Assembly: GCA_963726615.1 (NCBI GenBank)
Contig: CAVSCX010000006.1
Span: 67,343-131,342, forward strand
Length of the DNA: 64,000 nt
Origin: an uncultured Actinomycetota bacterium
GTDB lineage: Bacteria > Actinomycetota > Actinomycetes > JACCUZ01
Direction of reading: 5' to 3'
In this document: positions 23,428 through 44,577 of the stretch, in pieces
How positions within the stretch are numbered: the first letter of the stretch is position 1
Layout: each line of letters begins with the position of its first letter
Program-made: the position numbers and the translations under genes
The notes under the pieces: model-generated
Told to the model about the DNA's origin: nothing
What the model saw: the letters and a program-made list of their open reading frames with translations, nothing else
The model's database searches: none

Positions 23428-23501
23428 CCCCGACGCAATGACCCCGACGCGATGACCCCGACGCAATGCCCCCGACGCAATGCCCCCGACGCAATGCCCC
23501 C
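23418..23501. repeat. Tandem repeat: 6 copies of a 14-bp unit (GACGCAATGACCCC, with a variant GACGCAATGCCCCC)
   Basis: Six perfect or near-perfect head-to-tail copies. They span the MFS stop codon and the ORF-track ATG of the next gene. Confidence 0.9.
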
Positions 23502-23533
23502 GAGTCCCTCCGCCGCCGGGTAGCGTTCTGCCG

Positions 23534-28600: not shown

Positions 28601-28702
28601 CTGCCTCGGCCCCGGTCGACAACGCCACCTTCCTCGACATCGGCGGCTCGCCGTACGAGGGCGCCCCGAAGCCACGGTGCGACACGAAGCTGGTCCGGGT
28701 GA
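25661..28702 (+). CDS. Large secreted multidomain surface protein, N-terminal segment (signal peptide, Cna-B/SdrD-B-like domains, and junk-looking translation after about 28,500)
   Basis: Signal peptide (VVAAMVCGFVTALPALPAQAA) and Cna-B-like repeats (GQVFEDNAPTNG..., YVFNDTNRNGVKDAGESGI). The protein-like translation ends near 28,500 and continues in the +2 frame. Confidence 0.6.
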   Translation: MRGLRAAPATVTSGRRGGVLARRLASQASRRAGTFSVVAAMVCGFVTALPALPAQAATTDSLSVTVVSARTEPRAFGGAGVQLNDPIDTFSWMVNVDATGTTDQRSPAVGSGCSALDADYPDSCRWPSIDEPSGWAPIYAQGTQDDLPLTNIPDGRYLISVVADGYSIDGAHFCVDNAPPAEPGCDSPLSGPVTVGMQPNPLPDSTLRGQVFEDNAPTNGGPDANEAGLANFVAQVNDTLGEVSTDVYGNPLCTTYVGEDPDTHLIPLADLDGDMLPVVEQLGGKCKSDDTGMLTVPHLGPNRYTLSAVAPDGQTWIQTTTLEGNHDYDAWMMEGDTGFDTTFARGGEPTPLPIFGYVRPTNDLAAGGTAHVKGVVVGVKTYTPPTGGSFDFWGGNTGTKVGGPIDRPWLSLQDLDNGDVAVWVGRGNADGSFDISGVPAGNYTLTWWDEPQDYNVNFINVTVTAGETVQMGQLPLNGWWTTYDGYVFNDTNRNGVKDAGESGISGFALTMRHRENNLMDRGTPTAVTDANGYYKFENGYPLGEWLVMEAYNDAFYTTGVTYQADNQPTPTTVKGAGVDVSVMPIIGLGGRLDWGVHAYSPGGNGIDPRNGGIVGTVSYDTTRNELDPQYAATEDWQPGISGVPVELHAPIDCGTNADTPCDANELYELAPDGSYAQGNLLNTYTTESWERPTGCTARDVDGNALVHGVDENVLVRNQETDGECISSFMQEIQYAPYPTDQGTPDANFGAAVNGNYGFGDGCFLPDGSPGEFDPDSESCSTGSLGPLPGARDYLVHVAIPDDATGKPMYKVTGEEDINIGNGDQIIPQVPPPSCAGPLHTVDLAGDASPAVLETGLVSSNNALTWTAVTAPGNNITVALDASGEDTPLSVDVTGSDIVVNLATDSGGAAVSTAAEVAAAVSADSAAAALVSVADTADSDGTGVVTTAPPPRTWPTARPTATRRWSVTEGSPTTCRSASRCLPRPRSTTPPSSTSAARRTRAPRSHGATRSWSG

Positions 28703-31700
28703 ACAACGGCAAGTCGATCGTGCCGATCTTCAATGTCTTCACCGACGTCCCGGTCCCGGCCCGGATGCGCACGGTCATCATCGACGACCTGAACTTCTCG
28801 ACCGACCCGCGCTCGATCATGTACGGCGAGAAGGCCGGTCTGGCCTTCGCCCCGGTCGGCATCTACGACTTCAACAACCGGCTCGAGTACACGACTGAGA
28901 CAGACTTCAACGGCATCTACGACGTTCTGATGCCGTCCACCGACCACATCAGCTGCCCGACGCCCTCCGGCCTGTGCGCGAACATGTACCGGTTCGTGGC
29001 CAACGACCCGGGTGTCCCGGGGCGGCTGAACCTGAACTACAACCCACGGTTCGCCACCCATGCCGCCGGTGCGGAGGGACTGCCTGGCCTGAGCACGTTC
29101 GCCGACCTCGCGCCCACCCAGGTCGGGCTGACCATCGAGCGACCGGGAAGCGGTGTGCAGCAGGCGGTGACCTGTCCGCTCGGCTCCGGCACGCCGCAGC
29201 TGCTCACCGTCTCCCAGCCTTACGTCAACGGCAGCGGTTCCTTCACCATCAACGGCACCGGGTTCGGTGCCACCAAGGGCGCCGGGAAGGTGACCCTCGA
29301 CGGCAGCATCGTGCTGCCGACGACCGGGTGGAACGACACCACGATCGGCGTCACGGTGCCGGCCGGCACGGCCGTCGGGGCCCACCAGCTCGAGGTCACG
29401 GCCGACAACGGTCAGACCACGGTGAACGGCCTCACCTTCCACGTCCGCGGCACGGGATACAACCCTGCGCTGAGGGAGGTCGGCCCCGGGAAGACGTTCG
29501 CCACCATCCAGGCGGCGCTGGACGCGGCGTTCACCAACAACGGTGATGACCTTGTCGTCGTCTACCCGGGCACGCCGGACCTGGTGAACCCGCGGAACAA
29601 CCCCCTCGGTGCCTACTACGAGAACCTGATCATGGCCTCGCCGGTCAAGCTCCAGGGCGTCGGGCCAGGCGGGTTCCAGGGCAGCACGTACCTGCCCGGT
29701 TCGATCATCGACGCGAGCGCCTTCGGCGGTGACACCCAGGTCGCCACCGACTGGTTCACGAGGGTCGGTGCCCTGACCTGGGACGGCAACCAGACTGTCA
29801 GTGACGCCGAGGCGATCTACGTGCTGGCGTCGGAGAACGCCACCACCGCCCCCGGCCGGGCACGACAGTTCACCGGCGGGTTCAAGGCGAGCATCGACGG
29901 CTTCGACCTGCGTGGCGGCATCCAGAACGGGTTCCCGGGCAACATCAACGACCTCACCGGGTTGCCCACCGGGCTGCCGCCGACGATCGAGACCCAGGGC
30001 GGCGCCATCTTCGCGAACGCTTTCGCCCGGTACCTGCAGATCACCAACAACGTGGTCCAGAACAACGGCAGTGCCTTCGGCACGATCCGGATCGGCACGC
30101 CCGACCTGCCGGCGCCCGGTACCAGTCAGCACAACGAGAACCTCAGGATCGCCGACAACAGGATCATCAACAACGCCGGCACCAACCTGGCCGGCGGCGT
30201 CGGTCTCTTCGCGGGAACGGACAGCTACGAGGTGACCGGCAACGACATCTGCGGCAACTTCTCGGTCGAGTACGGCGGCGGCCTGAGCATCTACGGCCGC
30301 AGCCCGGGCGGGAAGATCCACCACAACCGGATCTTCTACAACATGTCCAACGACGAGGGCGGCGGCATCATGATTGCCGGCCAGCTGCCGGCCAACCCCA
30401 GTGCCCTCTCGCCGGGCTCGGGTCCGGTGGACATCTACAACAACCAGATCCAGGCCAACCTGGCCAACGACGACGGTGGCGGCATCCGCTTCCTCATGGC
30501 CGGCGGCCCCGGTGGCACCGACGCCATGAACGTCTACAACAACATGATCGTGAACAACGTCTCGACGCACGAGGGCGGGGGCATCGGGCTCAACGACGCA
30601 CCCAACGTCCGGGTCGTGAACAACACCATCATGAAGAACCTGACGACGGCGACCGCCGTCACGTCCAACGGGCAGCCCGCCCCGGCCGGGCTCTCGACCT
30701 CGGCAAACAGCGTCCAGCTGCAGGCAACCCTTCCGGGCAGCGCTCCGACGTTCAGCAACCCGACCCTGTTCAACAACATCTTCTGGGACAACCGGGCGGG
30801 GACCCGTGCCGGGACGAAGGTCACCGGCATCGGTGCCGCCGGGGACGCGGCCCCGATCGACCACTGGGACGTGGGCGTGGCTGACGGCACCGGTCTGCTG
30901 GCGCCGACGAGCTCTGTCGTCCAGCTGGACAACGGTGGCCACCCCTACACCGCCAGCGCGTCCAACTCGTCCGCCGACCCGCAGGTCGTCGACGACAGCT
31001 ACGACGTGTCGGCGTCCTTCGTGACGTGGCGGCAGAACCCGGCCTTCGTCGACGCAACCCTCGTGGCGGTGGAGCTGCCGCCGAACCAGCAGGGGAACTA
31101 CCACCTCACGGCGACGTCGCCCGCGGTCGACCTGGGTGTGCCGAACCTGGGCGGGGTCAATGCGCCGGCGACCGACATCGACGACCAGGCCCGGCCGGCC
31201 GGCGCCGCCTTCGACAGCGGTGCGGACGAGTACCTGGCTGCGGCGCCGCCTCCTCCGCCGACGAGCTCCGACCTGTACTTCTCGACGACCGGGAACGCGA
31301 ACCCGCCGGGAGTCACCGGCACGGCCGACGACGCGGACATCTACCGGTGGAACGGCACCGCCTACAACCGGGAGATCGACTTCACTGCCGCGCCCTACAA
31401 TCTGCCTGCCAGCGCGAACGTCGACGGGTTCTCCCGGGTTGACGCGAACCACTTCTACCTGTCCTTCACCGCCAGCGTCAGCCTGCCAGGGTTCGGCACC
31501 GTGGCGGACGAGGACGTCGTGTTCTGGAACAACGGGTCGTGGTTGCTCTGGTTCGACGGCAGCACGCACGGCGTGGCCGGCGACATCGGAGCGGTCAGCG
31601 TGGCCGGGACGACCATGTACTTCTCTACCAAGAACAACGCGGTGCCGCCGGGGGCCGGTGGTCCCGGCGACAACGCCGACATCTACCGGTGGAACGGCGG

Positions 31701-32730
31701 CAGCTCGTACACCCGGATGGTCGACGCCAGCGCGGCGCCGTACAACCTGCCGAACTCCGGTTCCGGCACCGGTCCGACCAACCCCAACGTCGACGGCCTG
31801 ATCTGGGTCGGCCCCAACGACTTCTACCTGTCGTTCAGCAACACGACGACCACCATGCCCGGCGGGCTTGGCGCCGTCCAGGACGAGGACGTCGTGCACT
31901 GGACCGGTTCGTGGTCGGTGTGGTTCGACGGCACCGCCCACGGCCTGACCTCCAACGCCCTGGACCTCGACGCCATCGCGTTCGCCTCAGGCGCACTTGC
32001 GCCGCCTCCGCCGCCACCGGTCCCGCCGGCGCCGCCGCTGGAGTTCTCCACGCTGGGGAACACCAACCCGCCCGGGGTCAGCGGCACGGCCGACGACGCC
32101 GACATCTACCGGTGGGACGGGGCCTACAGCCGGGCGCTGGACCTCTCCGCGGCGCCCTACAACCTGCCGGGCAACGCCAACGTGGACGGCTTCGACCGGG
32201 TGAACGCCACCCAGTTCTACGTCTCCTTCTCCGCGGCCAACACCACCGTGCCGGGACTTGGCGCGGTCCAGGACGAGGACGTGCTGTTCTGGAACGGCAG
32301 CGCCTGGTCGGTGTGGTTCAACGGCACCGCACACGGGCTGACGGCCGCCGACGCAGACCTCGATGCGATCAGCATCGTCGGGTCGACGCTGTACTTCTCG
32401 ACGCTGGGCAGCATCAACCCGCCGGGTGTCACCGGGACGGCCGACAACTCCGACATCTACAGCTGGAACGGCAGCGCCTACGCCCGGGTGTGGGACGCCA
32501 CGGCGAACGGGCTCCCGGCCGCCACGAACGTCGACGGCTACGTGCGGGTGAGCGCCACCCAGTTCTACCTGTCCTTCAGCCCGGCGACCACGGCCGTCTC
32601 GGGTCTGGGCACCGTGGAGGACGAGGACGTCGTCTACCGCAACGGCAGCACCTGGTCGGTGTACTTCGACGGCACCGCTCATGGGCTGACCACCGCCAAC
32701 CTCGACGTGGACGCCTTCGATGTCCCGTAA
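28549..32730 (+). CDS. Large secreted multidomain protein, continuation segment: IPT/TIG domain, right-handed parallel beta-helix (pectate-lyase-like) repeats, poly-Pro linkers, and a C-terminal 4x tandem-repeat domain
   Basis: The frame is open and protein-like from 28,498 onward (GAAAENLANGTADGYPAVVGDGGVTNDLP). Beta-helix repeats (NNVVQNNGSAFGTIRIG, HNRIFYNMSNDEGGGIMIAG, NNMIVNNVSTHEGGGIGLN). The C-terminal repeats end ...LDVDAFDVP. Confidence 0.65.
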   Translation: MVGDGGVTNDLPVGVTVPASAPVDNATFLDIGGSPYEGAPKPRCDTKLVRVNNGKSIVPIFNVFTDVPVPARMRTVIIDDLNFSTDPRSIMYGEKAGLAFAPVGIYDFNNRLEYTTETDFNGIYDVLMPSTDHISCPTPSGLCANMYRFVANDPGVPGRLNLNYNPRFATHAAGAEGLPGLSTFADLAPTQVGLTIERPGSGVQQAVTCPLGSGTPQLLTVSQPYVNGSGSFTINGTGFGATKGAGKVTLDGSIVLPTTGWNDTTIGVTVPAGTAVGAHQLEVTADNGQTTVNGLTFHVRGTGYNPALREVGPGKTFATIQAALDAAFTNNGDDLVVVYPGTPDLVNPRNNPLGAYYENLIMASPVKLQGVGPGGFQGSTYLPGSIIDASAFGGDTQVATDWFTRVGALTWDGNQTVSDAEAIYVLASENATTAPGRARQFTGGFKASIDGFDLRGGIQNGFPGNINDLTGLPTGLPPTIETQGGAIFANAFARYLQITNNVVQNNGSAFGTIRIGTPDLPAPGTSQHNENLRIADNRIINNAGTNLAGGVGLFAGTDSYEVTGNDICGNFSVEYGGGLSIYGRSPGGKIHHNRIFYNMSNDEGGGIMIAGQLPANPSALSPGSGPVDIYNNQIQANLANDDGGGIRFLMAGGPGGTDAMNVYNNMIVNNVSTHEGGGIGLNDAPNVRVVNNTIMKNLTTATAVTSNGQPAPAGLSTSANSVQLQATLPGSAPTFSNPTLFNNIFWDNRAGTRAGTKVTGIGAAGDAAPIDHWDVGVADGTGLLAPTSSVVQLDNGGHPYTASASNSSADPQVVDDSYDVSASFVTWRQNPAFVDATLVAVELPPNQQGNYHLTATSPAVDLGVPNLGGVNAPATDIDDQARPAGAAFDSGADEYLAAAPPPPPTSSDLYFSTTGNANPPGVTGTADDADIYRWNGTAYNREIDFTAAPYNLPASANVDGFSRVDANHFYLSFTASVSLPGFGTVADEDVVFWNNGSWLLWFDGSTHGVAGDIGAVSVAGTTMYFSTKNNAVPPGAGGPGDNADIYRWNGGSSYTRMVDASAAPYNLPNSGSGTGPTNPNVDGLIWVGPNDFYLSFSNTTTTMPGGLGAVQDEDVVHWTGSWSVWFDGTAHGLTSNALDLDAIAFASGALAPPPPPPVPPAPPLEFSTLGNTNPPGVSGTADDADIYRWDGAYSRALDLSAAPYNLPGNANVDGFDRVNATQFYVSFSAANTTVPGLGAVQDEDVLFWNGSAWSVWFNGTAHGLTAADADLDAISIVGSTLYFSTLGSINPPGVTGTADNSDIYSWNGSAYARVWDATANGLPAATNVDGYVRVSATQFYLSFSPATTAVSGLGTVEDEDVVYRNGSTWSVYFDGTAHGLTTANLDVDAFDVP

Positions 32731-32770: not shown

Positions 32771-34135
32771 ATGCGCCACCCAGCGATCGGCTCCGGGCAG
32801 AGCCCCAGGGGAGACGAGGACACGACCCCCACGGCCCGGCTCAACCGGCGACGCTTCCTCCAGGTCACCGGCGGCGCGGTGGCCGCCTCAACCCTGCCGT
32901 GGGCCGGCAAGGTGCTGCTGCCCCAGCCGGCCTTTGCGGCCCCGGGGGTCCCTGACCTCTACCTGGGCGGCACCGACGGGTGGATCTTTCTTCCCAGGAC
33001 GCCTGCCATCCCGCCCTTCCACCCCGACGTGCTCGCGCCGAGCCCGTTCACGACCTACATCTTCGGCTTCCGCAACCTCACCGGTCTGACGCCGGACCTG
33101 CGCCACAACCAGAAGAACAAGGCACAGCACTCGGCGCCACTGTTCTGGGTGAAGCAGTTCGACCCGGCACTCCCGGTCGACTTCCGGGTCACGCTGACGA
33201 ACCTCGGTCTCGCGCTGAGGCCGGACCTCTTCGACGCGCACACGGTGCACTGGCACGGGTTCCGCAACGTGATCCCGTTCTACGACGGGGAGCCGACCGG
33301 ATCGATCTCGGTGCCAAGCGGCCGCGAGTTCACCTACGTCTACCGGCCCCGGGACCCCGGGACCTACATGTACCACTGCCACGTCGAGGACGTGGAGCAC
33401 GTGCACATGGGCATGACGGGCCTGGTCTTCGTCCGGCCGCTGCAGGACGGCAACACCAGCCTCTACCCCAGTGGCAAGTACGTGTACAACGACGGCGACG
33501 GGTCGACCGGTTTCGACCGCGAGTTCGCGATGTTCCTCTCCGAGGTCTGGGCCGAGTCGCACTGGGCGGACGCGCACATCCAGCTGCCCGAGTGGAGCGA
33601 CTACAAGGCCGACTTCAGCCTCCTCAACGGGCGGGTCTACCCCGACACCATCGCCCCCAACGGCTCGATCGACCCGTTCAACCCGGTGCGGGACGCGACC
33701 GGCGACCTGATCGCCCCAGCCGGCCGCCCCGAGCTGAAGTACCAGCCGCACTCGTCCCTCGTGAACTGCAACGCCGGCGAGAAGGTCGCGCTGCGTTTCG
33801 CCAACCTCGGGTTCCGCGAGCAGGCGATGACCATGGCCGGGATCCGGATGCGCGTCGTGGGCCGCGATGCCACCCCGATGCGCGGCCGGGACGGCACCGA
33901 CACCTCCTACGAGACCGAGACGCTGAACATCGGCCCGGGTGAGAGCTACGACGTCGTCTTCACGGCCCCGGGGAAGTCCGGACCGGGCTACGACACCTAC
34001 ATGCTCTACAACCGCAACTACGCCCGGTCGAACAACCGTGCACCCGGCGGCTTCGGCGGGCAGGCGACCGAGGTCCGGGTCTACGCCGCCGGGACGGTGG
34101 CCCCGCAGGCCTATCCGAACGACTGGGGCGTCTGA
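32771..34135 (+). CDS. Multicopper-oxidase-family cupredoxin protein with a Tat signal, carrying the T1 site plus HxxHxHG/HCH motifs
   Basis: Twin-arginine signal (RRRFLQVTGGAVAAS). HTVHWHG and HCHVEDVEHVHMGM motifs, which are of the domain-3/T1 type. Confidence 0.7.
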   Translation: MRHPAIGSGQSPRGDEDTTPTARLNRRRFLQVTGGAVAASTLPWAGKVLLPQPAFAAPGVPDLYLGGTDGWIFLPRTPAIPPFHPDVLAPSPFTTYIFGFRNLTGLTPDLRHNQKNKAQHSAPLFWVKQFDPALPVDFRVTLTNLGLALRPDLFDAHTVHWHGFRNVIPFYDGEPTGSISVPSGREFTYVYRPRDPGTYMYHCHVEDVEHVHMGMTGLVFVRPLQDGNTSLYPSGKYVYNDGDGSTGFDREFAMFLSEVWAESHWADAHIQLPEWSDYKADFSLLNGRVYPDTIAPNGSIDPFNPVRDATGDLIAPAGRPELKYQPHSSLVNCNAGEKVALRFANLGFREQAMTMAGIRMRVVGRDATPMRGRDGTDTSYETETLNIGPGESYDVVFTAPGKSGPGYDTYMLYNRNYARSNNRAPGGFGGQATEVRVYAAGTVAPQAYPNDWGV

Positions 34136-34140
34136 GCGCC

Positions 34141-35481
34141 ATGACGAGAGGTAGTGCAGTCATGCCTGGGAAGACTCGCGCTCGCGCATTGCGCCGTCCT
34201 GCGCTGCTCGCCGTCGTGCTGGCGGTGTTCTCGGCCGCCGGTGCCACGCTCACCAGCGTGTCTCCGGCGACCGCCGATCCGCGGCCGAAGGTCGGCATCG
34301 TCTGCACCTCGGGCAGCGGTGGCTCGGCGGACCACCCGATCTTCAACCTGACCACCAAGACGGGCTACATCAGCCTGCCGGACGGCAACACCGCCTTCAT
34401 GTGGGGCTACTCCAGCGGGTTCGACGGGTTCCAGCACCCCGGGCCGGTTCTCTGCGTCAACAAGGGCGACACCGTCACCGTCATCCTGCACAACACGCTG
34501 CCCGAGGCGACGTCGATCGCCTTCCCCGGCCAGCAAGGCGTGCTCGCCGACGGCGCACCCGCGCAACCACAGGTCAACGGCGGCGGGACGGTGACCTCGC
34601 TCACCGACACCGCGCCGGCGGTCAACGGCACTGTCACCTACAGCTTCGTCGCCGACCACCCTGGAACGTTCCTGTACGAGTCCGGGACGAACCCCGAGAA
34701 GCAGGTTCGGATGGGTCTGTTCGGTGCGCTGATCGTCCGGCCGGCGCTGGGCGCGAACTACGCCTACGACCGCTCGGACAGCCGGTTCACGCCGTCGGAG
34801 GAGTTCATGGTGCTCCTCTCCGAGATCGACCCGTACCAGCACCAGGCGGTGGAGCAGGGCAAGAACTTCAACATCAACAACTACCACCCGCGGTACTGGC
34901 TCATCAACGGCCGCGGCTTCCCGGACAGCATCGCCGACAACGACGCGTCCTGGCTGCCGACCCAGCCCTACGGCGCGCTGGCGCAGGTGTACCCGTACGA
35001 CAGCGTGGAGCACCCGTACCCGGGGATGGCCCGCTACCTCAGCGTGGGTACCGAGGACTACCCGTTCCACCCGCACGGCAACAACGGACTGGTCATCGGC
35101 CGGGACGGCCGCCCGCTCGAGGGCCCGGCCGGGGAGGACCTGTCGTTCGAGAAGTTCGACATCAACGTCGGCCCGGGGCAGACCTGGGACGTGATCTTCA
35201 AGTGGTACGACGCCGAGGGCTACAACCCCACCACCAAGCCGGTGCCCGACACCGTCCCCGGCCTGCTCAACTCGGTGGTCGGCGTCTTCTACAGCGGCAG
35301 CCCGTACCTCGGGACGAGAGAGGTCCTGCCACCGGGAACGCCGACCCTCAACCAGTGCGGTGAGTACTACATCATCTCGCACAACCACGCGCTGTTCCAG
35401 ATCACCTCGTGGGGCGCGAACATGACCGGCCCGATCACCTACATGCGGATCGACCCGCCCAAGCCCAACGACTGCGGTTGA
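34141..35481 (+). CDS. Multicopper-oxidase-like cupredoxin protein carrying domain-1-type trinuclear-cluster ligands (HPHG, HNH), with a Sec signal
   Basis: Signal peptide (LLAVVLAVFSAAGATLTSVSPATA). The N-terminal cupredoxin domain lacks Cu ligands. C-terminal FHPHGNNG and ISHNHALFQI motifs. Confidence 0.65.
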   Translation: MTRGSAVMPGKTRARALRRPALLAVVLAVFSAAGATLTSVSPATADPRPKVGIVCTSGSGGSADHPIFNLTTKTGYISLPDGNTAFMWGYSSGFDGFQHPGPVLCVNKGDTVTVILHNTLPEATSIAFPGQQGVLADGAPAQPQVNGGGTVTSLTDTAPAVNGTVTYSFVADHPGTFLYESGTNPEKQVRMGLFGALIVRPALGANYAYDRSDSRFTPSEEFMVLLSEIDPYQHQAVEQGKNFNINNYHPRYWLINGRGFPDSIADNDASWLPTQPYGALAQVYPYDSVEHPYPGMARYLSVGTEDYPFHPHGNNGLVIGRDGRPLEGPAGEDLSFEKFDINVGPGQTWDVIFKWYDAEGYNPTTKPVPDTVPGLLNSVVGVFYSGSPYLGTREVLPPGTPTLNQCGEYYIISHNHALFQITSWGANMTGPITYMRIDPPKPNDCG

Positions 35482-35500: not shown

Positions 35501-38482
35501 ATGACGCGAGGGACGACGATGAAGAAGGCAGCTCTGTCTCTGCTCGGCGCCGGTGCGCTGGCGGCCCTGGGCATCCTGGCGGGACCGGCTGGTCCGGCGT
35601 CCGCCGCCGCCGTGACGATCGACCTCTACACCGCAACGGGCACTACCAGCCTGCCCGGGGCGGCGTCGCTCCCGGTGTGGGGGTACCGCACCAGCGCGGG
35701 CGCGGTGACCCAGCCCGGTGGCCCGGTGCTCACTGTCGACGAGGGCGACACGGTCACCATCACGCTGCACAACGGCCTCTCCGAGTCCACGGGCCTGCTT
35801 CTGCAGGGCCAGCGAATGGTCCCGGACCGCAGCGGTGTGTCCGCCGGCGGCACCAAGACCTACAGCTTCACCGCGAGCGACCCGGGTACGTACCTGTACG
35901 AGGCAGCGCTGCTCCCGAACGCCCAGCACCAGGTGGCGATGGGGCTCTACGGCGCTCTCGTGGTCCGGCCCGCCGGCGCGCCCGGCCAGGCCTACGGTGC
36001 TGCGAGCACGGCGTTCGACGACCAGGCTGTGCTGCTCCTCAGTGAGATCGACCCGGCGTTGAACAACGCGGGCAACAAGGCGACCTTCGACATGCGCAAG
36101 TTCGCGCCGCGCTACTTCCTGGTCAACGGCAGGGCGCACCCGGCGACCACCACGATCCCGACCACAGGTGGGCGCACGGTGCTCCTGCGCTACGTCAACG
36201 CGGGCATCCAGTACCACTCGATGTCCGTCCTGGGCGCGCACCAACGGGTCATCGCCCTCGACGGCAGCCGGTTGGACTACGCCCGCAGGTACGTCGCGGA
36301 GACCTTCGGCCCCGGCCAGACCGCCGACGCCCTCGTCACGGCCCCGGCCGCGGCGACCGATACCAAGCTGAGCGTCTACGACGGCAGCCTGCAGCTGCAC
36401 AACAGCAACACCGGCGGGATCGGCGGCATGCTCACCTCGATCGACGTGGCGCCCAGCCTCTCGGGAGGCGACACGACCGGCCCGATCACCACGGCCGCGA
36501 CCTTGACGGGTACCACCCTGACCGCGCATGTCGACGACTCCACCCGGGGTGGTGCGGACGTCCAGGCGGCTGAGTACTTCCTCGACACTGTCGTCGCACC
36601 GGGCGACGGGACAGGCATGGCCGGTGCCTTCAGCTCGGCGGCAGTCGACGTCACCGCGACGTCGGTGTCGGTCCCGAGCGGGCATCACGTGCTTTACCTG
36701 CGAGGGCAGGACTCGACGGGCAACTGGGGGCCGCTCACCTCGGTGCTGGTCTCCGGCGGCGACGCCAACGGCCCGGTCACCAGGAGCGCGCTCCTCGCGC
36801 CCCGGCTCACGAACCACGCCAACACCGGCGGGGTGGCCGTCTCCGCGACCGGCGACGACAGCGGCACCGGAGGATCAGACATCACCGCCGGCGAGTACTG
36901 GATCGACGGCGGCTCGCACGTCGCCATGACTGTGAACACGGCAGCACCGGTGGCCAGCCTGGACGCCACCATCCCGGCCGGCGTCATCAACGGAGTCGGC
37001 GCTACCCCCGGGCTCGCCGAAGGCACCCGGGTCGTGTCCATCCGCAGCCAGGACGCCGGGGGCACCTGGGGCGCACCCGTCACGGTCAACCTGGTGGTGG
37101 ACGTCACACCACCGACGACTGGTGGCGTCTCGGTGAGCCCGACGCCGAACAACGGCACCCTGCCCGTCAACACCAGCACGCCGGCGGTGCGGGTCACTGC
37201 GACGAGCCTGTCGGACCCGATCTCCAGCGACGTCAACAGCCCGATCGGTGCCGCCGAGGTGTTCATCGACACGGTCGGTGCCAACGGCTCGGGCATCCCG
37301 CTGGGCGCCAGCGACGGGGTCTACAACGATCCGTCCGAGGGCGGGTACGCCGACATCCCGCTGTCGACCGTCAAGGCACTGGGCAACGGCCCGCACACGC
37401 TGTCCGTGCACGCCAAGGACGCTGCCGGCAACTGGGGCGCCTTCGCCACCACGACGCTGCTCGTCGACAAGGTCGGCCCCGCCGTCTCTGGCGCCTCGGC
37501 GACCCCGAACCCGACCCAGGCGGCCACGTCGGTGACGCTGACGGCGTCGGCGACGGACACCGCCACCGCCATCACGCAGGCCGAGTGGTTCACCGGGACC
37601 GACCCCGGCTTCGGGAACGGCACGCCGATGGCCATGTCCGGCTCCGGGCTCGGTCCGATCGGGCTCTCGGCCACCATCGACGTGAGCAGCTGGAACGAGG
37701 GCTCGTACGCCCTGCGGGTGCGGGCGAAGGACACGGCGGGCAACTGGGGGACGACCACGAGCACGACGCTCGCGGTGACCGCGCCGCTCGAGTTCTCCAC
37801 GTTCGGCAACACGAACCCGCCAGGTGTGACCGGCACGGCTGACGACGCGGACATCTACGGCTGGAGCGGGTCGGCGTTCAGCAGGGTGCTCGACATGTCG
37901 GCCGCGCCGTACAACCTGCCGGGCAACGCCAACGTGGACGGGTTCGACCGGGTCAGCCCGTCGACGTTCTACCTGTCCTTCAGCGGCGCGACCACCACCG
38001 TGCCCGGGCTCGGAGCGGTCCAGGACGAGGACGTGCTGTTCTGGAACGGCACCACCTGGTCGGTGTGGTTCGACGGGACGGCGCACGGCCTGACCGCCGC
38101 GAACCAGGACATCGACGCGATCAGCGTCGTCGGCTCCACGCTGTACTTCTCCACGGTCGGCAACACCAACCCGCCGGGAGTCGGCGGTGCGGCAGACGAT
38201 GCCGACATCTACAGCTGGAACGGCAGCTCCTACGCCCGGGTCTGGGACGCCACCGCCAACGGCCTCGCCGGCGCCGCCAACGTCGACGGCCTGGTGTTCC
38301 TGGACAGCAGCCACTTCTACCTGTCCTTCAGCCCCACCACCACGACCGTGCCCGGCCTGGGAGCCGTCGAGGACGAGGACGTGGTCTACAACAACGGCGG
38401 CACGTGGAAGGTCTACTTCGACGGCACCGCCCACGGACTGACGGCGGCCAACCTCGACGTGGACGCCTTCGATGTGCCGTGA
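35501..38482 (+). CDS. Secreted cupredoxin-like (ligand-less MCO-like) / Ig-like-domain protein with the shared C-terminal tandem-repeat domain
   Basis: Signal peptide (MKKAALSLLGAGALAALGILAGPAGPASA). Its N-terminal 280 aa are homologous to the N-terminus of the 34141 protein. GNWG-containing Ig-like repeats are present. The C-terminal repeats are identical in type to those of 28549-32730 and 40917-43412. Confidence 0.7.
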   Translation: MTRGTTMKKAALSLLGAGALAALGILAGPAGPASAAAVTIDLYTATGTTSLPGAASLPVWGYRTSAGAVTQPGGPVLTVDEGDTVTITLHNGLSESTGLLLQGQRMVPDRSGVSAGGTKTYSFTASDPGTYLYEAALLPNAQHQVAMGLYGALVVRPAGAPGQAYGAASTAFDDQAVLLLSEIDPALNNAGNKATFDMRKFAPRYFLVNGRAHPATTTIPTTGGRTVLLRYVNAGIQYHSMSVLGAHQRVIALDGSRLDYARRYVAETFGPGQTADALVTAPAAATDTKLSVYDGSLQLHNSNTGGIGGMLTSIDVAPSLSGGDTTGPITTAATLTGTTLTAHVDDSTRGGADVQAAEYFLDTVVAPGDGTGMAGAFSSAAVDVTATSVSVPSGHHVLYLRGQDSTGNWGPLTSVLVSGGDANGPVTRSALLAPRLTNHANTGGVAVSATGDDSGTGGSDITAGEYWIDGGSHVAMTVNTAAPVASLDATIPAGVINGVGATPGLAEGTRVVSIRSQDAGGTWGAPVTVNLVVDVTPPTTGGVSVSPTPNNGTLPVNTSTPAVRVTATSLSDPISSDVNSPIGAAEVFIDTVGANGSGIPLGASDGVYNDPSEGGYADIPLSTVKALGNGPHTLSVHAKDAAGNWGAFATTTLLVDKVGPAVSGASATPNPTQAATSVTLTASATDTATAITQAEWFTGTDPGFGNGTPMAMSGSGLGPIGLSATIDVSSWNEGSYALRVRAKDTAGNWGTTTSTTLAVTAPLEFSTFGNTNPPGVTGTADDADIYGWSGSAFSRVLDMSAAPYNLPGNANVDGFDRVSPSTFYLSFSGATTTVPGLGAVQDEDVLFWNGTTWSVWFDGTAHGLTAANQDIDAISVVGSTLYFSTVGNTNPPGVGGAADDADIYSWNGSSYARVWDATANGLAGAANVDGLVFLDSSHFYLSFSPTTTTVPGLGAVEDEDVVYNNGGTWKVYFDGTAHGLTAANLDVDAFDVP

Positions 38483-38551: not shown

Positions 38552-39058
38552 ATGAGCACTGCGACCCTGCCCGACGCCGATGTCCAGCCGGAAGACCCGG
38601 CCCCGCCTCGCCGGTGGCGCTGGGCGGTGCTCGTCCTCGTGCTCGCCCTGCTCGCTGGTGGCTTCGCGGCCCGCGGCCTGTGGGCCGAGCAGAAGGCGGA
38701 CATCCGCTCGGGAACGACGCTGGTGGACGCCGACGGGCTGGCGGCCCGCTACGGCGTGAAGGTCACACTGCTGGCCGTGACCGCAGCGGGGGGCCTCGTC
38801 GAGCTCCGCTACCAGGTCGTCGACCCGGACAAGGCCGACGCCCTGCGGCACGACCTCGAGCTCGTCCCGGCCATCGTGGTCGAGGACACCGGGGCCACCT
38901 TGGTGCTGTCCTCGCTCCCGCACAACCATGGTGAGACCCGGCTGGGCGGCACCTACTTCTTCCTGTTCCCCAACGCACAGAACGCGCTCCACGCCGGCAC
39001 GCTGGTGACCCTTGTGGTGGGCGACGTGCGACTCGAGCACGTGAAGGCGCAGGGATGA
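38552..39058 (+). CDS. Membrane-anchored hypothetical protein, a possible periplasmic accessory of CopCD
   Basis: 168 aa with one N-terminal TM helix (WRWAVLVLVLALLAGGFAA). It is translationally coupled to the downstream CopC-CopD gene (stop overlaps start at 39055). Confidence 0.5.
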   Translation: MSTATLPDADVQPEDPAPPRRWRWAVLVLVLALLAGGFAARGLWAEQKADIRSGTTLVDADGLAARYGVKVTLLAVTAAGGLVELRYQVVDPDKADALRHDLELVPAIVVEDTGATLVLSSLPHNHGETRLGGTYFFLFPNAQNALHAGTLVTLVVGDVRLEHVKAQG

Positions 39059-40920
39059 CCGGAGGACGCTCGTGCGTGGTGCGCCGGCTCGCGTGGAGCC
39101 TGCTCGCTGCCGTGACCGTGCTCGTCCTGTCGGCAGTACCGGCGTCGGCTCACAGCGAGATCGAACGGTCCGACCCGCCGAACGGCGGCATGGTCGCCGT
39201 GGGCAGGACCACTCTGTCGCTCTCGTTCGGGGAGCGCGTCAACACCGGGGCGAGCACGTTCGAGCTGCACAGCCGGGACGGGACGCGCGCCGAGGCAACG
39301 GTCGAGCCGGCCGGCCGTGACGGCGGCCGGGTCGTGCAGCTGAGCACCGCGCCGCTGGCCTTCGGCATCTATAGCTTGGACTGGCGGGTCCTCTCGCTCG
39401 AGGACGGGCACCCGTCAAGCGGCTCGATCGTGTTCGGCGTCGGGCTGCGACCCGTCCTGGTGCCCTCGGGCGGCGCCGTCCGCCCGGAAGGCCCGAGCCT
39501 CGTCCTGCGGTGGGTGGACCTGTCGGCGATGCTGCTCGCGATCGGCGCGCTGGCGGTCTCCGGCCGGGTGCTCGGCTCGATGGGTGAAGCGGGGGCAGGT
39601 CCCCGACGACGGGCCCGCCGGATCGCCGCGGCGGCGGCCGGGCTGGCGATCGTGTCGGGGGCGCTCACACCAGTCGTGCGGACCCAGCGCGGGGGCAGCT
39701 CCCTCGGCGAGTGGGCAGGGCAGATCTGGGCGACCCTGACCGGCACCCCGTGGGGCCACCTGTGGCTGGCCCGGGAGCTCGCCGTCCTGCTGGCCGCGGG
39801 CGCGTTGTTGTCCTGGGCGACCAGGCGGCCGGACTCGGCCGGCCGGGTCCGGATCGCGCTGGTCGCCCTGGTGGCGTCCGCGTGGCTGGAGGGCTGGGCC
39901 GGGCACGCCTCGGCCCTGCCGACCCGGTCCGCGCTCGCTGGTCTTGCCGCGTCCGCCCACCTCGTCGCGGCGGGCGTCTGGGCCGGCGGCCTCGTCGTCC
40001 TGGCCCTGTGCGTGCTCCCGGTGATGCGGCGCGCCCCGGACCTTCGAGGTCCCGTCCTGGCGTCGGTGTGGCGAACGTTCAGCCCACGCGCTGCCGTCGC
40101 GTCGGTCGTCCTGCTGGCGACCGGTCTCTACGAGGCCGGGCGGCACGTGCCGACGCTGGGCTCGGTCACCGCGACGCTGTACGGCGGTGCCGTGGCCGCG
40201 AAGACGCTGCTGGTACTGCTGGCGCTGGCCCTGGCCGCGGTGAACACGCTTGTCGTCAACCCACGGCTGGCGGCGCGGGTGGGCCGGGCGATCGGGCGAC
40301 CTGAAGGGTGGGCGCCGGTGTCATTGCGACGGTTCACCACCGTGGTGATGGCCGAGGTGCTCGTCCTGGTCGTGGCGGCGGGGACCGCGGCTGTGCTCAC
40401 CTCCGTCCCGACCGCCCGCGAGATCGCTGCCGCCGCCCCGGTGACGGCTCCGGCATTCGACACCGTCGACGGCCTCTTCCTCACGGTCGAGGACGTTCCC
40501 GCGGGGCCGCACCGGAGCCGGCTGATCGTGCGGGTGCGGGCCACCGTCCTGCCCGAGCCGGCGCCCGTGACCGGAGTGGTGGTCCGTCTCGTCGGCCCCC
40601 GTGGCAGGCCGTCGCGCGTCACCCCGGAGCCGGTGGAGCCGGGCCGGTACGAAGCCGAGAAGCGCGCACCGTCCCCCGGGCGCTGGACCGCCCGGGTCGC
40701 CGTGCACCGGGCGGGGCTGCCGGACTCCGTGGCGCGGGTCCGGTGGACGGTGGCAGCGCCGACCTCGAACACGGTCCGCCCGCTCGAGGTTGTCACCACC
40801 GGCGTCGCCGGGCTGCTGCTGGCTGCCCTGCTGACTGTCGTCTGGCACGCCCGCGTGCGCCGACCGCCCGCGGCTCCCGGGCCGGTCGCACCCGTGCTGA
40901 CCGACGCGAGCCGGCGATGA
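39055..40920 (+). CDS. CopC-CopD fusion copper-resistance/uptake membrane protein
   Basis: N-terminal CopC domain (signal peptide then AHSEIERSDPPNG) followed by eight predicted TM helices of CopD type. Confidence 0.8.
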   Translation: MTGGRSCVVRRLAWSLLAAVTVLVLSAVPASAHSEIERSDPPNGGMVAVGRTTLSLSFGERVNTGASTFELHSRDGTRAEATVEPAGRDGGRVVQLSTAPLAFGIYSLDWRVLSLEDGHPSSGSIVFGVGLRPVLVPSGGAVRPEGPSLVLRWVDLSAMLLAIGALAVSGRVLGSMGEAGAGPRRRARRIAAAAAGLAIVSGALTPVVRTQRGGSSLGEWAGQIWATLTGTPWGHLWLARELAVLLAAGALLSWATRRPDSAGRVRIALVALVASAWLEGWAGHASALPTRSALAGLAASAHLVAAGVWAGGLVVLALCVLPVMRRAPDLRGPVLASVWRTFSPRAAVASVVLLATGLYEAGRHVPTLGSVTATLYGGAVAAKTLLVLLALALAAVNTLVVNPRLAARVGRAIGRPEGWAPVSLRRFTTVVMAEVLVLVVAAGTAAVLTSVPTAREIAAAAPVTAPAFDTVDGLFLTVEDVPAGPHRSRLIVRVRATVLPEPAPVTGVVVRLVGPRGRPSRVTPEPVEPGRYEAEKRAPSPGRWTARVAVHRAGLPDSVARVRWTVAAPTSNTVRPLEVVTTGVAGLLLAALLTVVWHARVRRPPAAPGPVAPVLTDASRR

Positions 40921-43458: not shown

Positions 43459-44577
43459 TCAGGCGGACAGGGCTGGAGCCGCGGCCGGAACCACCGGCGC
43501 GGTCGCCCGCGCCGGGTCGCGGAGCGGGATCCGTATGCCGACCAGAGCACCGCCGAGCTGGGACCGGGCCACGAGCACGTCGCCGCCGTGCGCCTCCGCT
43601 GCGGCCCGCACGTAGGCGAGCCCCAGACCCGTGCCGCCGCGCTCGGCGCTCTTGCGCCAGAACCGCTGGAACACCGCCTTGGCGTCCTCGGCCGCGATGC
43701 CGGGCCCGCTGTCGGCCACGCCCAGGAGCGCCGAGTTCTCGACCCGGCGACAGACGATCCGGACCTCGTCGCCCGGACCGGTCACGGCGACGGCGTTCTC
43801 GACCAGGGCATCAAGGGCGATCCGCGCGACGTCGTCGTCGGCCAGCGTCCCCATCGCGTCGGGGGCCTCCAACGACCACCGCCGCTCCACCGAGACCGAC
43901 CACCTGTCGTGCACGTCGGTCGCGAGCTGCCGCAGGTCGACCGCCCTCGGTGACAGCACGTCAGGGCGCTCCAGCTCGGCGATGGCGAGCAGGCGGCTGG
44001 CCATCCGGCCGATGCGGTCCAGCTCCGCGAGCGCGACGTCCGCATCGTGGCGGACCAGGTCGTCGTCGTCGGCGGCGGAGTCCCGGAGCAGCTCGATGTG
44101 ACCGCGGGCGATCGTGAGGGGTGTGCGCAGCGCGTGGGAGGTGTCCCGCGCGAGCTCGTGCTCGTGCAGCCGCCGCTCACGCTCCAGCTGCGCCATGTGC
44201 TCGACCTGCCGCTGCATCGCGAACCGGCGCCGGGCGTGCCACACCATCGCGCCGAGGATCGCCGGCATGAGGACGATCTCGAACATCTCGTCGCCCGGGA
44301 TCTGCCCGTCGACCCAGTGGAGGTAGAAGATGACGCCGGTCGTCGCCACGATCCCGCCGAGGACTGCGATGGTCACCGCCAGGGACCACACCCGGAAGCC
44401 GTAGACGGCAGCGAAGCTCACGAACAGGATGTGGTAAGGCACGGTCTCGAACCCGTGCATGACAAGCGTCGCGTACAGGAGCAGACCTGTCCACGCCGCG
44501 AACGCGAGGTCCACGCCGAGGCGCCAAGGACGACCTCCGGACGCGGCCGCCTCAGACGGCGAGCGCGTAGCCGACAT
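43459..44577 (-). CDS. Sensor histidine kinase (intramembrane-sensing type, four TM helices with no large periplasmic domain)
   Basis: HisKA region (HELARDTSHALRTPLT) and HATPase_c (GTGLGLAYV). Its start overlaps the upstream RR gene by 26 nt. Confidence 0.85.
   Translation of the reverse strand: MSATRSPSEAAASGGRPWRLGVDLAFAAWTGLLLYATLVMHGFETVPYHILFVSFAAVYGFRVWSLAVTIAVLGGIVATTGVIFYLHWVDGQIPGDEMFEIVLMPAILGAMVWHARRRFAMQRQVEHMAQLERERRLHEHELARDTSHALRTPLTIARGHIELLRDSAADDDDLVRHDADVALAELDRIGRMASRLLAIAELERPDVLSPRAVDLRQLATDVHDRWSVSVERRWSLEAPDAMGTLADDDVARIALDALVENAVAVTGPGDEVRIVCRRVENSALLGVADSGPGIAAEDAKAVFQRFWRKSAERGGTGLGLAYVRAAAEAHGGDVLVARSQLGGALVGIRIPLRDPARATAPVVPAAAPALSA

What the first reader, a model, noticed from the sequence alone, without database searches (positions are those of the whole stretch)
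32771..35481. Adjacent cupredoxin genes with complementary copper-ligand sets: a candidate split (heteromeric) multicopper oxidase
Gene 32771-34135 has a Tat signal and carries the T1-site/domain-3-type ligands (HTVHWHG = HxxHxHG, and HCHVEDVEHVHMGM = HCH...H...M), but I find no HxHG/HxH pair elsewhere in it. Gene 34141-35481 has a Sec signal and an N-terminal cupredoxin domain in which the usual ligands are replaced (ILHNTLPEATSIAFPGQ, HPGTFLYESG). Its C-terminal domain carries exactly the missing domain-1-type trinuclear-cluster histidines (FHPHGNNG = HxHG, and ISHNHALFQI = HxH). Together the two polypeptides supply the full set of one T1 ligand group plus eight trinuclear-cluster His residues. 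This suggests a trinuclear centre assembled at a heteromeric interface, unlike homotrimeric two-domain laccases.
Basis: partly seen in the sequence, partly recalled or inferred. Interest (0 to 1): 0.8.

Follow-up and report, generated by a model that had tools for sequence, protein, structure and literature searches.

The report
Split three-subunit multicopper oxidase operon
Three adjacent, related genes each encode a two-domain copper-oxidase-like protein, but the residues for one complete active site are split between the first two and missing from the third; the pattern holds in hundreds of bacterial genomes and points to an oxidase that can only work as a mixed complex, which I could not find described for this enzyme class.

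Summary

- **gA (32771-34135):** carries a type-1 copper site plus four trinuclear-cluster (TNC) histidines in its N-terminal cupredoxin domain. Its second domain has lost the ligands.
- **gB (34141-35481):** the mirror image. Domain 1 is dead; domain 2 carries the other four histidines (HPH, HNH) and no Cys.
- **gC (35501-38482):** It has the same two-domain module with no ligand set, followed by Ig-like domains and a C-terminal tail.
- **Linkage and ligand conservation:** in 80 genome loci (Actinomycetota, Chloroflexota) B follows A in 77/77 and C follows B in 76/76; A's ligands are invariant and B's four His nearly so (76-79 of 79). In a distant metagenomic clade (about 35-40% identity) A sits upstream of B in 55/55 and C downstream in 53/54, with the same ligand split.
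- **Fusions:** two divergent operons carry genuine B-C fusions.
- **Family background:** two-domain multicopper oxidases are trimers whose TNC is built by two protomers.

Best reading: an obligate heteromer with a single T1/TNC centre at the A.d1/B.d2 interface. C most likely acts as an inert ring and anchor subunit, giving an unfused ceruloplasmin-like enzyme.

No multimer model could be run, so the quaternary structure is inferred. I found no description of such an enzyme in the searchable literature.

The parts
32771..34135 (+). gA: electron-entry subunit. Two cupredoxin domains with a twin-arginine signal. Domain 1 has the T1 site plus 4 TNC His; domain 2 has no ligands.
   Evidence: ORF. 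Pfam Cu-oxidase_2/_3/Cu-oxidase. Best PDB sequence hits are 2zwn and 3g5w, both type-C 2dMCOs. Ligands invariant in 81/81 sequences.
32846..32866 (+). RRRFLQV twin-arginine motif of gA
   Evidence: The ortholog consensus is RRxFLxLAGGA.
33239..33259 (+). gA domain-1 motif HTVHWHG (H157 T1; H160 and H162 TNC, assigned by analogy)
33374..33415 (+). gA domain-1 motif HCHVEDVEHVHMGM (H202/H204 TNC, C203/H210/M215 T1)
33815..33841 (+). gA domain-2 degenerate motif REQAMTMAG. It aligns to the HxH motif of 2zwn domain 2 and to gB's FHPHG.
33998..34021 (+). gA domain-2 C-terminal degenerate motif YMLYNRNY (N-R-N where gB has H-N-H; aligned by eye)
   Evidence: N414/R415 (full-length numbering; N358/R359 in the trimmed row of alignment A1) are invariant.
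34141..35481 (+). gB: ligand-donor subunit. Two cupredoxin domains; domain 1 has no ligands; domain 2 has 4 TNC His and no Cys.
   Evidence: ORF. Pfam Cu-oxidase_3. hhalign to gA (27% identity) and to gC (40% identity). His invariant or nearly so.
34483..34533 (+). gB domain-1 degenerate motif ILHNTLPEATSIAFPGQ (T/A/P at gA's HxxHxH positions)
34657..34686 (+). gB domain-1 degenerate motif HPGTFLYESG (E-S-G at gA's H-C-H)
35065..35088 (+). gB domain-2 motif FHPHGNNG (H310, H312)
35374..35403 (+). gB domain-2 motif ISHNHALFQI (H414, H416). Asn replaces the T1 Cys, and Gln sits at the T1-His position (that Gln is invariant among close orthologues).
35501..38482 (+). gC: third paralogue. N-terminal two-cupredoxin module without any ligand set, then Ig-like domains and a C-terminal tail.
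   Evidence: ORF. Pfam Cu-oxidase_3/Cu-oxidase plus Ig-like hits. hhalign to gB, 40% identity, E 1e-52. No invariant His.
35606..36457 (+). gC two-domain MCO-like module. Degenerate motifs at nt 35765-35812, 35879-35908, 36212-36235 and 36395-36409.
37787..38479 (+). gC C-terminal 231-aa tail module, 79% identical to the C-termini of gH and the S8 protease
38552..39058 (+). gD: small membrane-anchored protein matching no curated family; conserved after gC
   Evidence: Counterparts in L081, L082, L085, L087 and L092.
39055..40920 (+). CopC-CopD fusion (copper handling)
   Evidence: Pfam CopC and CopD; NCBIfam matches to copper_CopC/copper_CopD models, both below their curated cut-offs. Conserved in synteny. 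Replaced by SCO1/SenC in distant operons.
40917..43412 (+). S8 subtilase carrying the same C-terminal tail module (nt 42717-43406)
   Evidence: Pfam Peptidase_S8. ATGA overlap with the copCD stop. Present downstream in 56 of the 58 fetched loci longer than 16.5 kb. Tail identity.
28549..32730 (+). gH: giant secreted TIG / beta-helix protein with the tail module repeated (nt 31273-32724)
   Evidence: Upstream of gA in 66/69 loci.
25661..28702 (+). g0: SdrD-B/SpaA-like secreted protein; first gene of the conserved cluster
   Evidence: An SdrD-like giant protein also heads the distant operons L085 and L092.

Best explanation
gA, gB and gC are paralogues of a type-C two-domain multicopper oxidase that have divided the parts of one catalytic centre between them. 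They work only as a hetero-oligomer, most likely a 1:1:1 pseudo-threefold ring of six cupredoxin domains.

**Proposed mechanism.**
- gA domain 1 holds the blue T1 copper (H157, C203, H210, M215). That is where the so far unknown substrate is oxidised.
- The H202-C203-H204 triad passes electrons to a trinuclear copper cluster.
- The eight His of that cluster come half from gA domain 1 (H160, H162, H202, H204) and half from domain 2 of the neighbouring gB (H310, H312, H414, H416). O2 is reduced to water there.
- The other two inter-subunit interfaces (B.d1/C.d2 and C.d1/A.d2) are permanently copper-free.
- gC closes the ring. Through its Ig-like domains and C-terminal tail it ties the oxidase to the same surface structure as gH and the S8 protease.
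- gD with CopCD (SCO1/SenC in other lineages) supplies copper outside the cytoplasm.

**Shown here:** paralogy, the ligand split, its conservation, the gene linkage, and the B-C fusions.

**Inferred:** physical assembly, ring order, stoichiometry, the roles assigned to individual ligands, and the copper-delivery role of the accessory genes. The substrate is unknown.
For: 1. **Ligand complementarity, strictly conserved.** The gA T1 plus 4-His set is invariant in 81/81 sequences. The gB 4-His set is 76-79 of 79. gC has no invariant His.
2. **Same split in deeply diverged versions.**
   - All 65 hand-picked full-length B-type sequences (30-70% identity) keep all four His. This sample is not unbiased; a few representatives listed lack one or both HxH.
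   - In 80 metagenomic loci, A modules have HCH plus HxxHxH in 52/52, all 80 B modules have at least 2 HxH and 79 of them no HCH, and C modules have no HxH in 50/53.
3. **Linkage.** Genomes: A-B 77/77, B-C 76/76. Distant clade: 55/55 and 53/54. Intergenic gaps in the window are 5 nt and 19 nt. 492 species genomes encode a gA relative.
4. **Rosetta-stone fusions.** P0366 (884 aa) and P0364 (1156 aa) are complete B-C fusions with domain-bearing linkers. Both sit in operons reading A / B-C / small protein / CopCD / an ORF whose translation looks like an S8 subtilase (not Pfam-scanned).
5. **Family architecture.** The nearest solved relatives are type-C 2dMCOs.
   - By sequence: 2zwn E 3e-11, 3g5w E 9e-11.
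   - By fold: the AF2 model of the B module has TM 0.75-0.76 and rmsd 3.0-3.1 A to 3g5w/2zwn.
   - 2dMCOs are trimers in which two protomers coordinate the TNC (PMC13151041).
6. **Neither A nor B alone, nor as a homotrimer, can supply more than half of a TNC**.
7. **Copper-handling genes sit in every version of the operon**.
Against: - There is no direct evidence of physical interaction.
- The AF2 model of the natural B-C fusion did not place the two modules in a ceruloplasmin-like arrangement. Six-domain proteins were the top hits by E-value, but with rmsd about 20 A and TM about 0.3. That model has pTM 0.57, and the alignment covering its C part was very shallow.
- One operon (L087) has a tandem C-C protein after A and B, that is four modules. 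This does not fit a simple 1:1:1 ring.
- An inter-protein covariation test gave no signal for the predicted domain pairs. It was dominated by clade effects (Neff 62).
- The substrate and physiological role are unknown.
Confidence: 0.62

Rival explanations
1. A and B do form the heteromeric catalytic centre, but C is not a ring subunit. Either the assembly has another stoichiometry (for example an open A-B heterodimer, an A/B-only trimer, or a larger array), or C is merely a scaffold or anchor that holds the enzyme on the cell surface.
For: - The L087 operon has a tandem C-C protein, which a strict 1:1:1 ring does not predict.
- The B-C fusion linkers are long and contain whole extra domains. 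The fusion may therefore serve co-localisation rather than ring contact.
- The AF2 fusion model did not show a ring-like packing.
- C carries varied adhesion or anchor modules: Ig-like domains, cadherin/Big_9, a dockerin-like end.
Against: - C keeps the complete two-cupredoxin module at about 35-60% identity across clades and is always the next gene.
- Known two-domain MCOs and NirK-type proteins close into three-module rings (established knowledge; PMC13151041).
- An A/B-only closed trimer would leave the conserved C module unexplained.
Confidence: 0.22
2. A and B act separately. gA would be a T1-only blue-copper electron carrier, or a NirK-like enzyme, with leftover histidines. gB would be a copper-binding or structural protein. 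The complementarity would be a relic of descent from a common two-domain MCO.
For: - No interaction data exist.
- NCBIfam's nitrite-reductase model gives weak hits to all three proteins.
- Copper-free MCO-like proteins are known (FtsP/SufI, factor V; factor V in PMC3600357).
Against: - Relic ligands would decay. Here all eight His and the T1 set are invariant or nearly so across two phyla and a clade at 35-40% identity. The non-ligand paralogous positions in the same proteins have been replaced.
- gA has the MCO patterns HxxHxH and HCH rather than the NirK pattern. gB supplies four His, not one.
- NirK model scores are 28-35 bits against a cut-off of 296.
- Four His on one domain face cannot make a stable TNC on their own (inference from known MCO sites).
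Confidence: 0.12
3. The genes are decaying duplicates (pseudo-enzymes on the way out), or artefacts of assembly or annotation.
For: Several database 'fusions' and one locus (L052) are clearly frameshift artefacts.
Against: - The ORFs are intact in the window and in more than 130 loci with conserved order.
- Mean column identity among orthologues is 59% (A), 66% (B) and 53% (C).
- Signal peptides and conserved disulfide cysteines are present.
Confidence: 0.02

Closest known systems
Type-C two-domain multicopper oxidases (metagenomic mgLAC, PDB 2zwn; Nitrosomonas europaea blue copper oxidase, PDB 3g5w)
   Same: - Two cupredoxin domains with T1 in the N-terminal domain, carrying the same HxxHxHG and HCH..H..M motifs as gA.
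- Best sequence matches for gA and best compact fold matches for the B-type module (TM 0.75-0.76).
- The TNC is built between domain 1 of one chain and domain 2 of the next (PMC13151041).
   Different: - Those enzymes are homotrimers. Every chain carries both half-sets of TNC ligands, giving three T1 and three TNC per trimer.
- Here no chain has both half-sets, at most one TNC per A-B pair is possible, and a third paralogue has none.
Six-domain multicopper proteins: ceruloplasmin/hephaestin, coagulation factors VIII and V, MnxG
   Same: - The predicted assembly would be a ring of three two-domain modules with a single TNC at one module junction and the other junctions copper-free.
- Six-domain proteins are thought to derive from triplication of a two-domain ancestor (PMC3600357).
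- Factor VIIIa is a non-covalent A1/A2/A3-C1-C2 trimer in which one module carries extra C-terminal domains (established knowledge). gC likewise carries extra C-terminal domains.
- These proteins were the top Foldseek hits by E-value for the B-C fusion model.
   Different: - They are encoded as a single polypeptide. Here there are three genes with separate signal peptides.
- Ceruloplasmin keeps three T1 sites; here there is one.
- The rigid-body match of the model was poor (rmsd about 20 A), so the ring remains an inference.
Bacillus Mnx complex (MnxG with MnxE3F3)
   Same: A bacterial multicopper oxidase that functions as a multi-protein complex encoded by adjacent genes. PDB 9bxa was among the top fold hits.
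   Different: MnxG is by itself a complete six-domain MCO. MnxE and MnxF are small non-MCO subunits and do not contribute TNC ligands (established knowledge).
Fungal heterodimeric laccases (POXA3-type, NLAC plus small subunit)
   Same: They are described in the literature as 'heterodimeric laccases'.
   Different: The large subunit is a complete three-domain laccase. The small subunit is not described as a cupredoxin protein in the abstract I saw (PMC10443355) and, from my own knowledge, supplies no copper ligands.
Copper nitrite reductase NirK
   Same: A trimer of two-cupredoxin-domain chains with T1 in domain 1 and a catalytic copper at the inter-subunit interface. It gives weak sequence hits to A, B and C.
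   Different: - It is a homotrimer with a mononuclear T2 site (3 His).
- gA plus gB carry the eight-His MCO pattern.
- NCBIfam NirK model scores are about a tenth of the cut-off.
Copper-free MCO-like proteins (FtsP/SufI; factor V)
   Same: gC, like these, keeps cupredoxin MCO domains without copper ligands (factor V in PMC3600357).
   Different: gC is a two-domain module encoded next to, and sometimes fused with, ligand-bearing paralogues.

Membership tests
Multicopper oxidase superfamily | Cupredoxin-type MCO domains | tested here: met
   Pfam Cu-oxidase/_2/_3 above gathering score in gA, gB and gC. PDB sequence hits to MCOs. Fold match for the B-type module.
Multicopper oxidase superfamily | T1 site ligands (His, Cys, His, plus axial Met) | tested here: met
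   Present only in gA domain 1 (H157, C203, H210, M215), invariant in 81/81. Absent from gB and gC.
Multicopper oxidase superfamily | Eight-His trinuclear-cluster set within the enzyme (four HxH motifs) | tested here: not met
   Not met by any single polypeptide: gA has 4, gB has 4, gC has 0. It is met only by gA and gB taken together, which is the basis of the heteromer proposal.
Type-C two-domain MCO (homotrimeric) | Two cupredoxin domains with the T1 copper in the N-terminal domain | tested here: met
   gA: T1 motifs at aa 157-215, second domain at aa 329-420. Definition of the type from PMC13151041.
Type-C two-domain MCO (homotrimeric) | Each protomer carries both half-sets of TNC ligands (domain 1 and domain 2), so that identical chains complete the cluster | tested here: not met
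   gA domain 2 has T-M-A where 2zwn has H-S-H. gB domain 1 has T/A/P and E-S-G at the ligand positions. gC lacks both sets.
Type-C two-domain MCO (homotrimeric) | Trimeric quaternary structure | not testable with these tools
Only monomer or fusion models were possible.
Six-domain MCO (ceruloplasmin / FVIII / MnxG type) | Six cupredoxin domains in one polypeptide | tested here: not met
   Three separate ORFs with stops and their own signal peptides. Only B and C are fused, and only in two divergent operons.
Six-domain MCO (ceruloplasmin / FVIII / MnxG type) | Six-domain ring with a single TNC at one module junction | tested here: inconclusive
   The ligand distribution predicts exactly this. 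However, the B-C fusion model did not superpose as a ring on 1kcw, 7kwo or 9bxa (rmsd about 20 A), and the model's inter-domain confidence is modest (pTM 0.57).
Copper nitrite reductase (NirK) | Match to the curated NirK model and a mononuclear T2 site pattern | tested here: not met
   TIGR02376 scores are 27.9-35.2 bits against a cut-off of 296.3. gA carries HxxHxH and HCH (MCO pattern), and gB supplies four His.
Copper-resistance MCOs CopA/PcoA and CueO | Match to the curated NCBIfam models | tested here: not met
   TIGR01480 scores 30-42 bits vs a cut-off of 479. NF008205 scores 26-30 bits vs 525.

The most novel reading that the evidence does not exclude
A natural 'unfused ceruloplasmin': a heterotrimer of three paralogous two-domain subunits forming a six-cupredoxin ring. 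It would have one T1 site, one trinuclear cluster built from two different polypeptides, and one fully inert subunit that anchors it. This would be the catalytic core of a widespread, uncharacterised cell-surface copper-oxidase machine (giant adhesin-like proteins, an S8 protease sharing the anchor tail, a dedicated copper supply) in Actinomycetota, Chloroflexota and other, still unassigned, lineages.
Probability: 0.45. Interest if true: 0.85.

Novelty: new variant of a known kind. Interest (0 to 1): 0.74.

Why it matters
- **A new quaternary logic for a well-studied enzyme class.** Every multicopper oxidase I know of has a complete copper-ligand set in a single gene product, either one chain or identical chains. 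A family whose O2-reducing cluster needs two different gene products, plus a dead third paralogue, would be new.
- **A living counterpart of a proposed evolutionary step.** The proposed route runs from two-domain trimer, through triplication and loss of two of three clusters, to the six-domain ceruloplasmin type. This family would correspond to the stage in between.
- **A natural pseudo-symmetric heterotrimer with a single active site.** That makes it a clean system for spectroscopy and protein engineering.
- **Annotation.** Many thousands of database entries are labelled 'multicopper oxidase domain-containing protein'. The B and C types are very unlikely to be autonomous oxidases.
- **An untouched target.** The conserved 8-gene cluster is present in at least 492 species genomes, and its substrate and physiological role are unknown.

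Tried and rejected
- **AF2 of gB with 40 close orthologues.** The model was poor (mean pLDDT 53.6; most of domain 2, including its whole C-terminal part, below 50). I did not use it.
- **AF2 of the natural B-C fusion P0366.**
  - MAFFT aligned the gC homologues onto the B part, so the C part had only about 1-15 sequences.
  - The B module folded well. The B/C arrangement did not match six-domain proteins. I treat this as inconclusive, not as evidence against.
- **Inter-protein mutual information (APC-corrected)** on 112 paired A/B/C triplets.
  - The second gave no enrichment for the predicted domain pairs and was dominated by a few clade-specific columns. It is uninformative at Neff 62.
- **Apparent A-B fusions (P0468, P0472, P0423), further B-C 'fusions' (P0398, P0389) and locus L052.** All are frameshift read-throughs with out-of-frame Arg/Pro-rich stretches and internal signal peptides.
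- **Long gC homologues of about 1390 aa.** These are not B-C fusions. They carry extra N-terminal copies of the tail repeat.
- **Profile search of the B family against PDB sequences.** It aligned only domain 1, so domain 2 could not be mapped by sequence to a solved structure.
- **Literature searches for heteromeric, heterotrimeric or split MCOs**.
  - They found only fungal laccases with non-cupredoxin small subunits.
  - They also found the N. maritimus 2dMCO, whose 'heterotrimer' consists of full-length and fragmented copies of one protein, the third lacking the extra cupredoxin domain.


Full report
**What is in the window**

The region is part of a 70% G+C actinobacterial-type sequence. 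On the + strand, tightly packed, lie the following genes:

| Gene | Coordinates | Description |
|---|---|---|
| g0 | 25661-28702 | SdrD-B/SpaA-like secreted protein |
| gH | 28549-32730 | TIG + beta-helix giant protein |
| gA | 32771-34135 | two-domain MCO-like |
| gB | 34141-35481 | two-domain MCO-like |
| gC | 35501-38482 | two-domain MCO-like module + Ig-like domains + tail |
| gD | 38552-39058 | 168-aa membrane-anchored protein, no family |
| copCD | 39055-40920 | CopC-CopD fusion |
| S8 | 40917-43412 | subtilase |

The gaps are 5 nt between gA and gB and 19 nt between gB and gC. The gD/copCD and copCD/S8 junctions overlap by 4 nt.

**Checking the observation**

- gA's only HxH triplets are in domain 1: H160-W-H162, H202-C-H204 and H210-V-H212.
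- gB's only two are in domain 2: H310-P-H312 and H414-N-H416.
- gA's best matches among solved structures are the type-C two-domain MCOs 2zwn and 3g5w. Its HTVHWHG and HCH..H..M align residue for residue with theirs. Its domain 2 aligns with 2zwn domain 2, but with T-M-A where 2zwn has H-S-H.
- Profile-profile alignment shows that A, B and C are paralogues over both domains: A-B 27% identity (E 4e-25), B-C 40% identity (E 1e-52).
- The ligand positions map as follows:

| Position | gA | gB | gC |
|---|---|---|---|
| d1, first motif | H..H.H | T..A.P | T..L.Q |
| d1, second motif | H-C-H | E-S-G | E-A-A |
| d2, first motif | T.A | H-P-H | S.L |

- For the last domain-2 motif (aligned by eye) gB has H-N-H, gA has N-R-N and gC has N-S-N.

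So gA domain 1 is 'live' (T1 plus half a TNC) and gA domain 2 is dead. gB domain 1 is dead and gB domain 2 carries the other half-TNC without a T1 Cys. Both gC domains are dead.

**Conservation**

A scan of one genome per species found relatives of gA in 492 genomes. The 80 best loci come from Actinomycetota (Nocardioides, Cellulomonas, Cryobacterium, Humibacillus, Xylanimonas and others) and Chloroflexota.

- Where the contig allows, gB directly follows gA in 77/77 loci, gC follows gB in 76/76, and gH precedes gA in 66/69.
- The S8 protease follows copCD in 56 of the 58 fetched loci longer than 16.5 kb.
- Across these orthologues gA's H157, H160, H162, H202, C203, H204, H210 and M215 are invariant.
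- gB's H310 and H312 are invariant. H414 and H416 are lost only in truncated or frameshifted rows.
- gC has no invariant His.

**Deep conservation**

An exhaustive search with gB found 260 representative clusters at E < 1e-30. Nearly all full-length ones have exactly two HxH motifs in domain 2 and no HCH. All 65 of the full-length B-type sequences I picked keep the four His; this sample is not unbiased.

Contexts of distant members (29-43% identity) again read A, B, C.

A metagenome scan seeded from a distant B (P0434) returned 80 loci. One of them, L092, is about 35-41% identical to the window's A, B and C.

- An A-type gene lies immediately upstream of B in 55/55 of these loci, and a C-type gene immediately downstream in 53/54. 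The one exception has it 2 kb further on.
- A modules have HCH plus HxxHxH in 52/52.
- All 80 B modules have at least two HxH, and 79 of them have no HCH.
- C modules have no HxH in 50/53.

The accessory genes change but keep their kinds. In L092 and L085 the operon reads: SdrD-like giant protein, A, B, C (cadherin/Big_9 tail), a small protein, an S8 protease, then SCO1/SenC. In L092 the S8 protease was shown to carry the same cadherin/Big_9 tail as C. L085 adds a cytochrome c protein.

**Fusions**

Two representatives are genuine, complete B-C fusions: P0366 (884 aa) and P0364 (1156 aa). Their linkers contain folded domains and lack an internal signal peptide. Their operons read: large protein, A-type (410-417 aa, with HTVHWHG and HCHFEDSEHV, domain 2 dead), the B-C fusion, a small protein, CopCD, and an ORF whose translation looks like an S8 subtilase (I did not Pfam-scan it). 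This is Rosetta-stone evidence that B and C act in one complex.

All other apparent fusions, including every A-B one, are frameshift artefacts.

**Structure**

Hetero-oligomer prediction was not possible. The results I could get were:

- A gB model from close orthologues was too poor to use.
- The P0366 fusion modelled with mean pLDDT 77.8 and pTM 0.57, with the B module mostly above 90.
- Foldseek matched the two-domain module to 3g5w and 2zwn at TM 0.75-0.76 and rmsd about 3 A.
- Foldseek ranked six-domain proteins (factor VIII, factor V, MnxG, ceruloplasmin) first by E-value, but with rmsd about 20 A and TM about 0.3.

So the fold assignment is solid. The ring arrangement was not reproduced. 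Because the C part of the alignment was very shallow, I regard this as inconclusive.

**Interpretation**

In two-domain MCOs the trinuclear cluster is coordinated by residues of two protomers of a trimer, and type C has T1 in the N-terminal domain (PMC13151041). Given that architecture, gA can only complete a cluster with a partner whose domain 2 carries the two HxH motifs. gB, the adjacent and always co-inherited gene, is exactly that. Neither homotrimer could build a cluster.

A three-module ring in the order A-B-C gives one live junction (A.d1/B.d2) and two dead ones (B.d1/C.d2 and C.d1/A.d2). That matches the ligand losses in all six domains. It parallels ceruloplasmin-type proteins, which are thought to descend from a triplicated two-domain ancestor and keep one cluster (PMC3600357).

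gC's tail (nt 37787-38479) is 79% identical to the C-termini of gH and the S8 protease. In the distant clade, C and the protease again share a tail, of a different domain type. This suggests that C also addresses the oxidase to a common surface structure.

The mixture of export signals implies that copper loading and assembly happen outside the cytoplasm. A has a Tat-type signal here but a Sec-type one in distant operons, and B has a Sec-type signal there. This fits the linked CopCD or SCO1 genes. These last points are inference.

**Caveats**

- There is no physical evidence of interaction.
- One operon has a C-C tandem after A and B, so a strict 1:1:1 ring may not be universal.
- The covariation analysis was uninformative.
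- The substrate is unknown.

**Prior knowledge**

Full-text searches found no report of an MCO whose trinuclear cluster is shared between different gene products. They found only fungal laccases with non-cupredoxin small subunits, and a 2dMCO trimer of full-length and fragmented copies of one protein, the third lacking the extra cupredoxin domain. The library misses most subscription journals, so an existing description cannot be excluded. Curated NCBIfam and Pfam models give only generic domain hits, far below the family cut-offs for CopA, CueO, laccase, ascorbate oxidase and NirK.

**Verdict**

- The heteromer interpretation is supported by strong comparative evidence and extended to a three-gene unit.
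- Quaternary structure and function remain to be shown.
- I rate it a new variant of a known kind (multicopper oxidase), with interest 0.74.

Noticed in passing
window 37787-38479, 32038-32724 (plus 31273-31977), 42717-43406: A module of about 230 aa (two ~115-aa repeats, '..FSTxGNTNPPGVxGTADDADIY..DEDVV..FDGTAHGL..') ends gC, gH and the S8 protease, at 79% identity between proteins. No Pfam family matches it. It is probably a shared anchoring or assembly tag.
   Followed up: partly
L092:7301-9184 and L092:9709-11967: In a distant version of the operon, the C subunit and the S8 protease again share a C-terminal tail. There it is made of cadherin-like/Big_9 domains instead of the window's repeat.
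   Followed up: partly
window 28200-28702 (end of g0, overlap with gH start at 28549): The last ~160 residues of the g0 ORF are not matched by orthologues (matches end near residue 850). The tail turns Arg/Pro/Thr-rich and overlaps gH by about 150 nt. This could be a frameshift, a lineage-specific insertion, or a mis-set gene boundary.
   Followed up: no
L087:4112-6202 (P0442): One operon carries a tandem C-C protein (two ligand-free modules) with a dockerin-like C-terminus after A and B. That makes four modules in all, which a simple three-module ring does not explain.
   Followed up: partly
L085:12731-14850; L092:11981-12592: Distant operons replace CopC-CopD with an SCO1/SenC copper chaperone. 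L085 also adds a 501-aa protein with a weak (precomputed) cytochrome c hit.
   Followed up: no
window 33557-33577 (gA aa 263-269, SHWADAH): Two further His (H264, H269) in the inter-domain segment of gA are invariant in the 80 close orthologues. In the divergent A proteins of L081 and L082 only H264 is kept and H269 is replaced. Their role is unknown.
   Followed up: partly
window 38552-39058 (gD) and counterparts in L081, L082, L085, L087, L092: A small (143-174 aa), single-pass membrane-anchored protein with no curated family always follows gC. The motif 'GDVRLEHV' near its C-terminus is shared by the window, L081 and L082 but not by L085.
   Followed up: partly
window 23480-25063: The upstream ORF has an F5/8 type C (discoidin) domain. 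It was not found in the flanks of the 80 related genome loci.
   Followed up: partly
L052:9419-13747; proteins P0398, P0389, P0468, P0472, P0423: Several database proteins and one MAG locus look like A-B or B-C fusions. They are frameshift read-throughs, with out-of-frame Arg/Pro-rich stretches and internal signal peptides. This is a trap for fusion-based inference in these assemblies.
   Followed up: yes
window 43459-44577 (- strand): A histidine kinase gene (HisKA + HATPase_c) lies just downstream of the cluster on the opposite strand. Whether it regulates the cluster was not examined.
   Followed up: no
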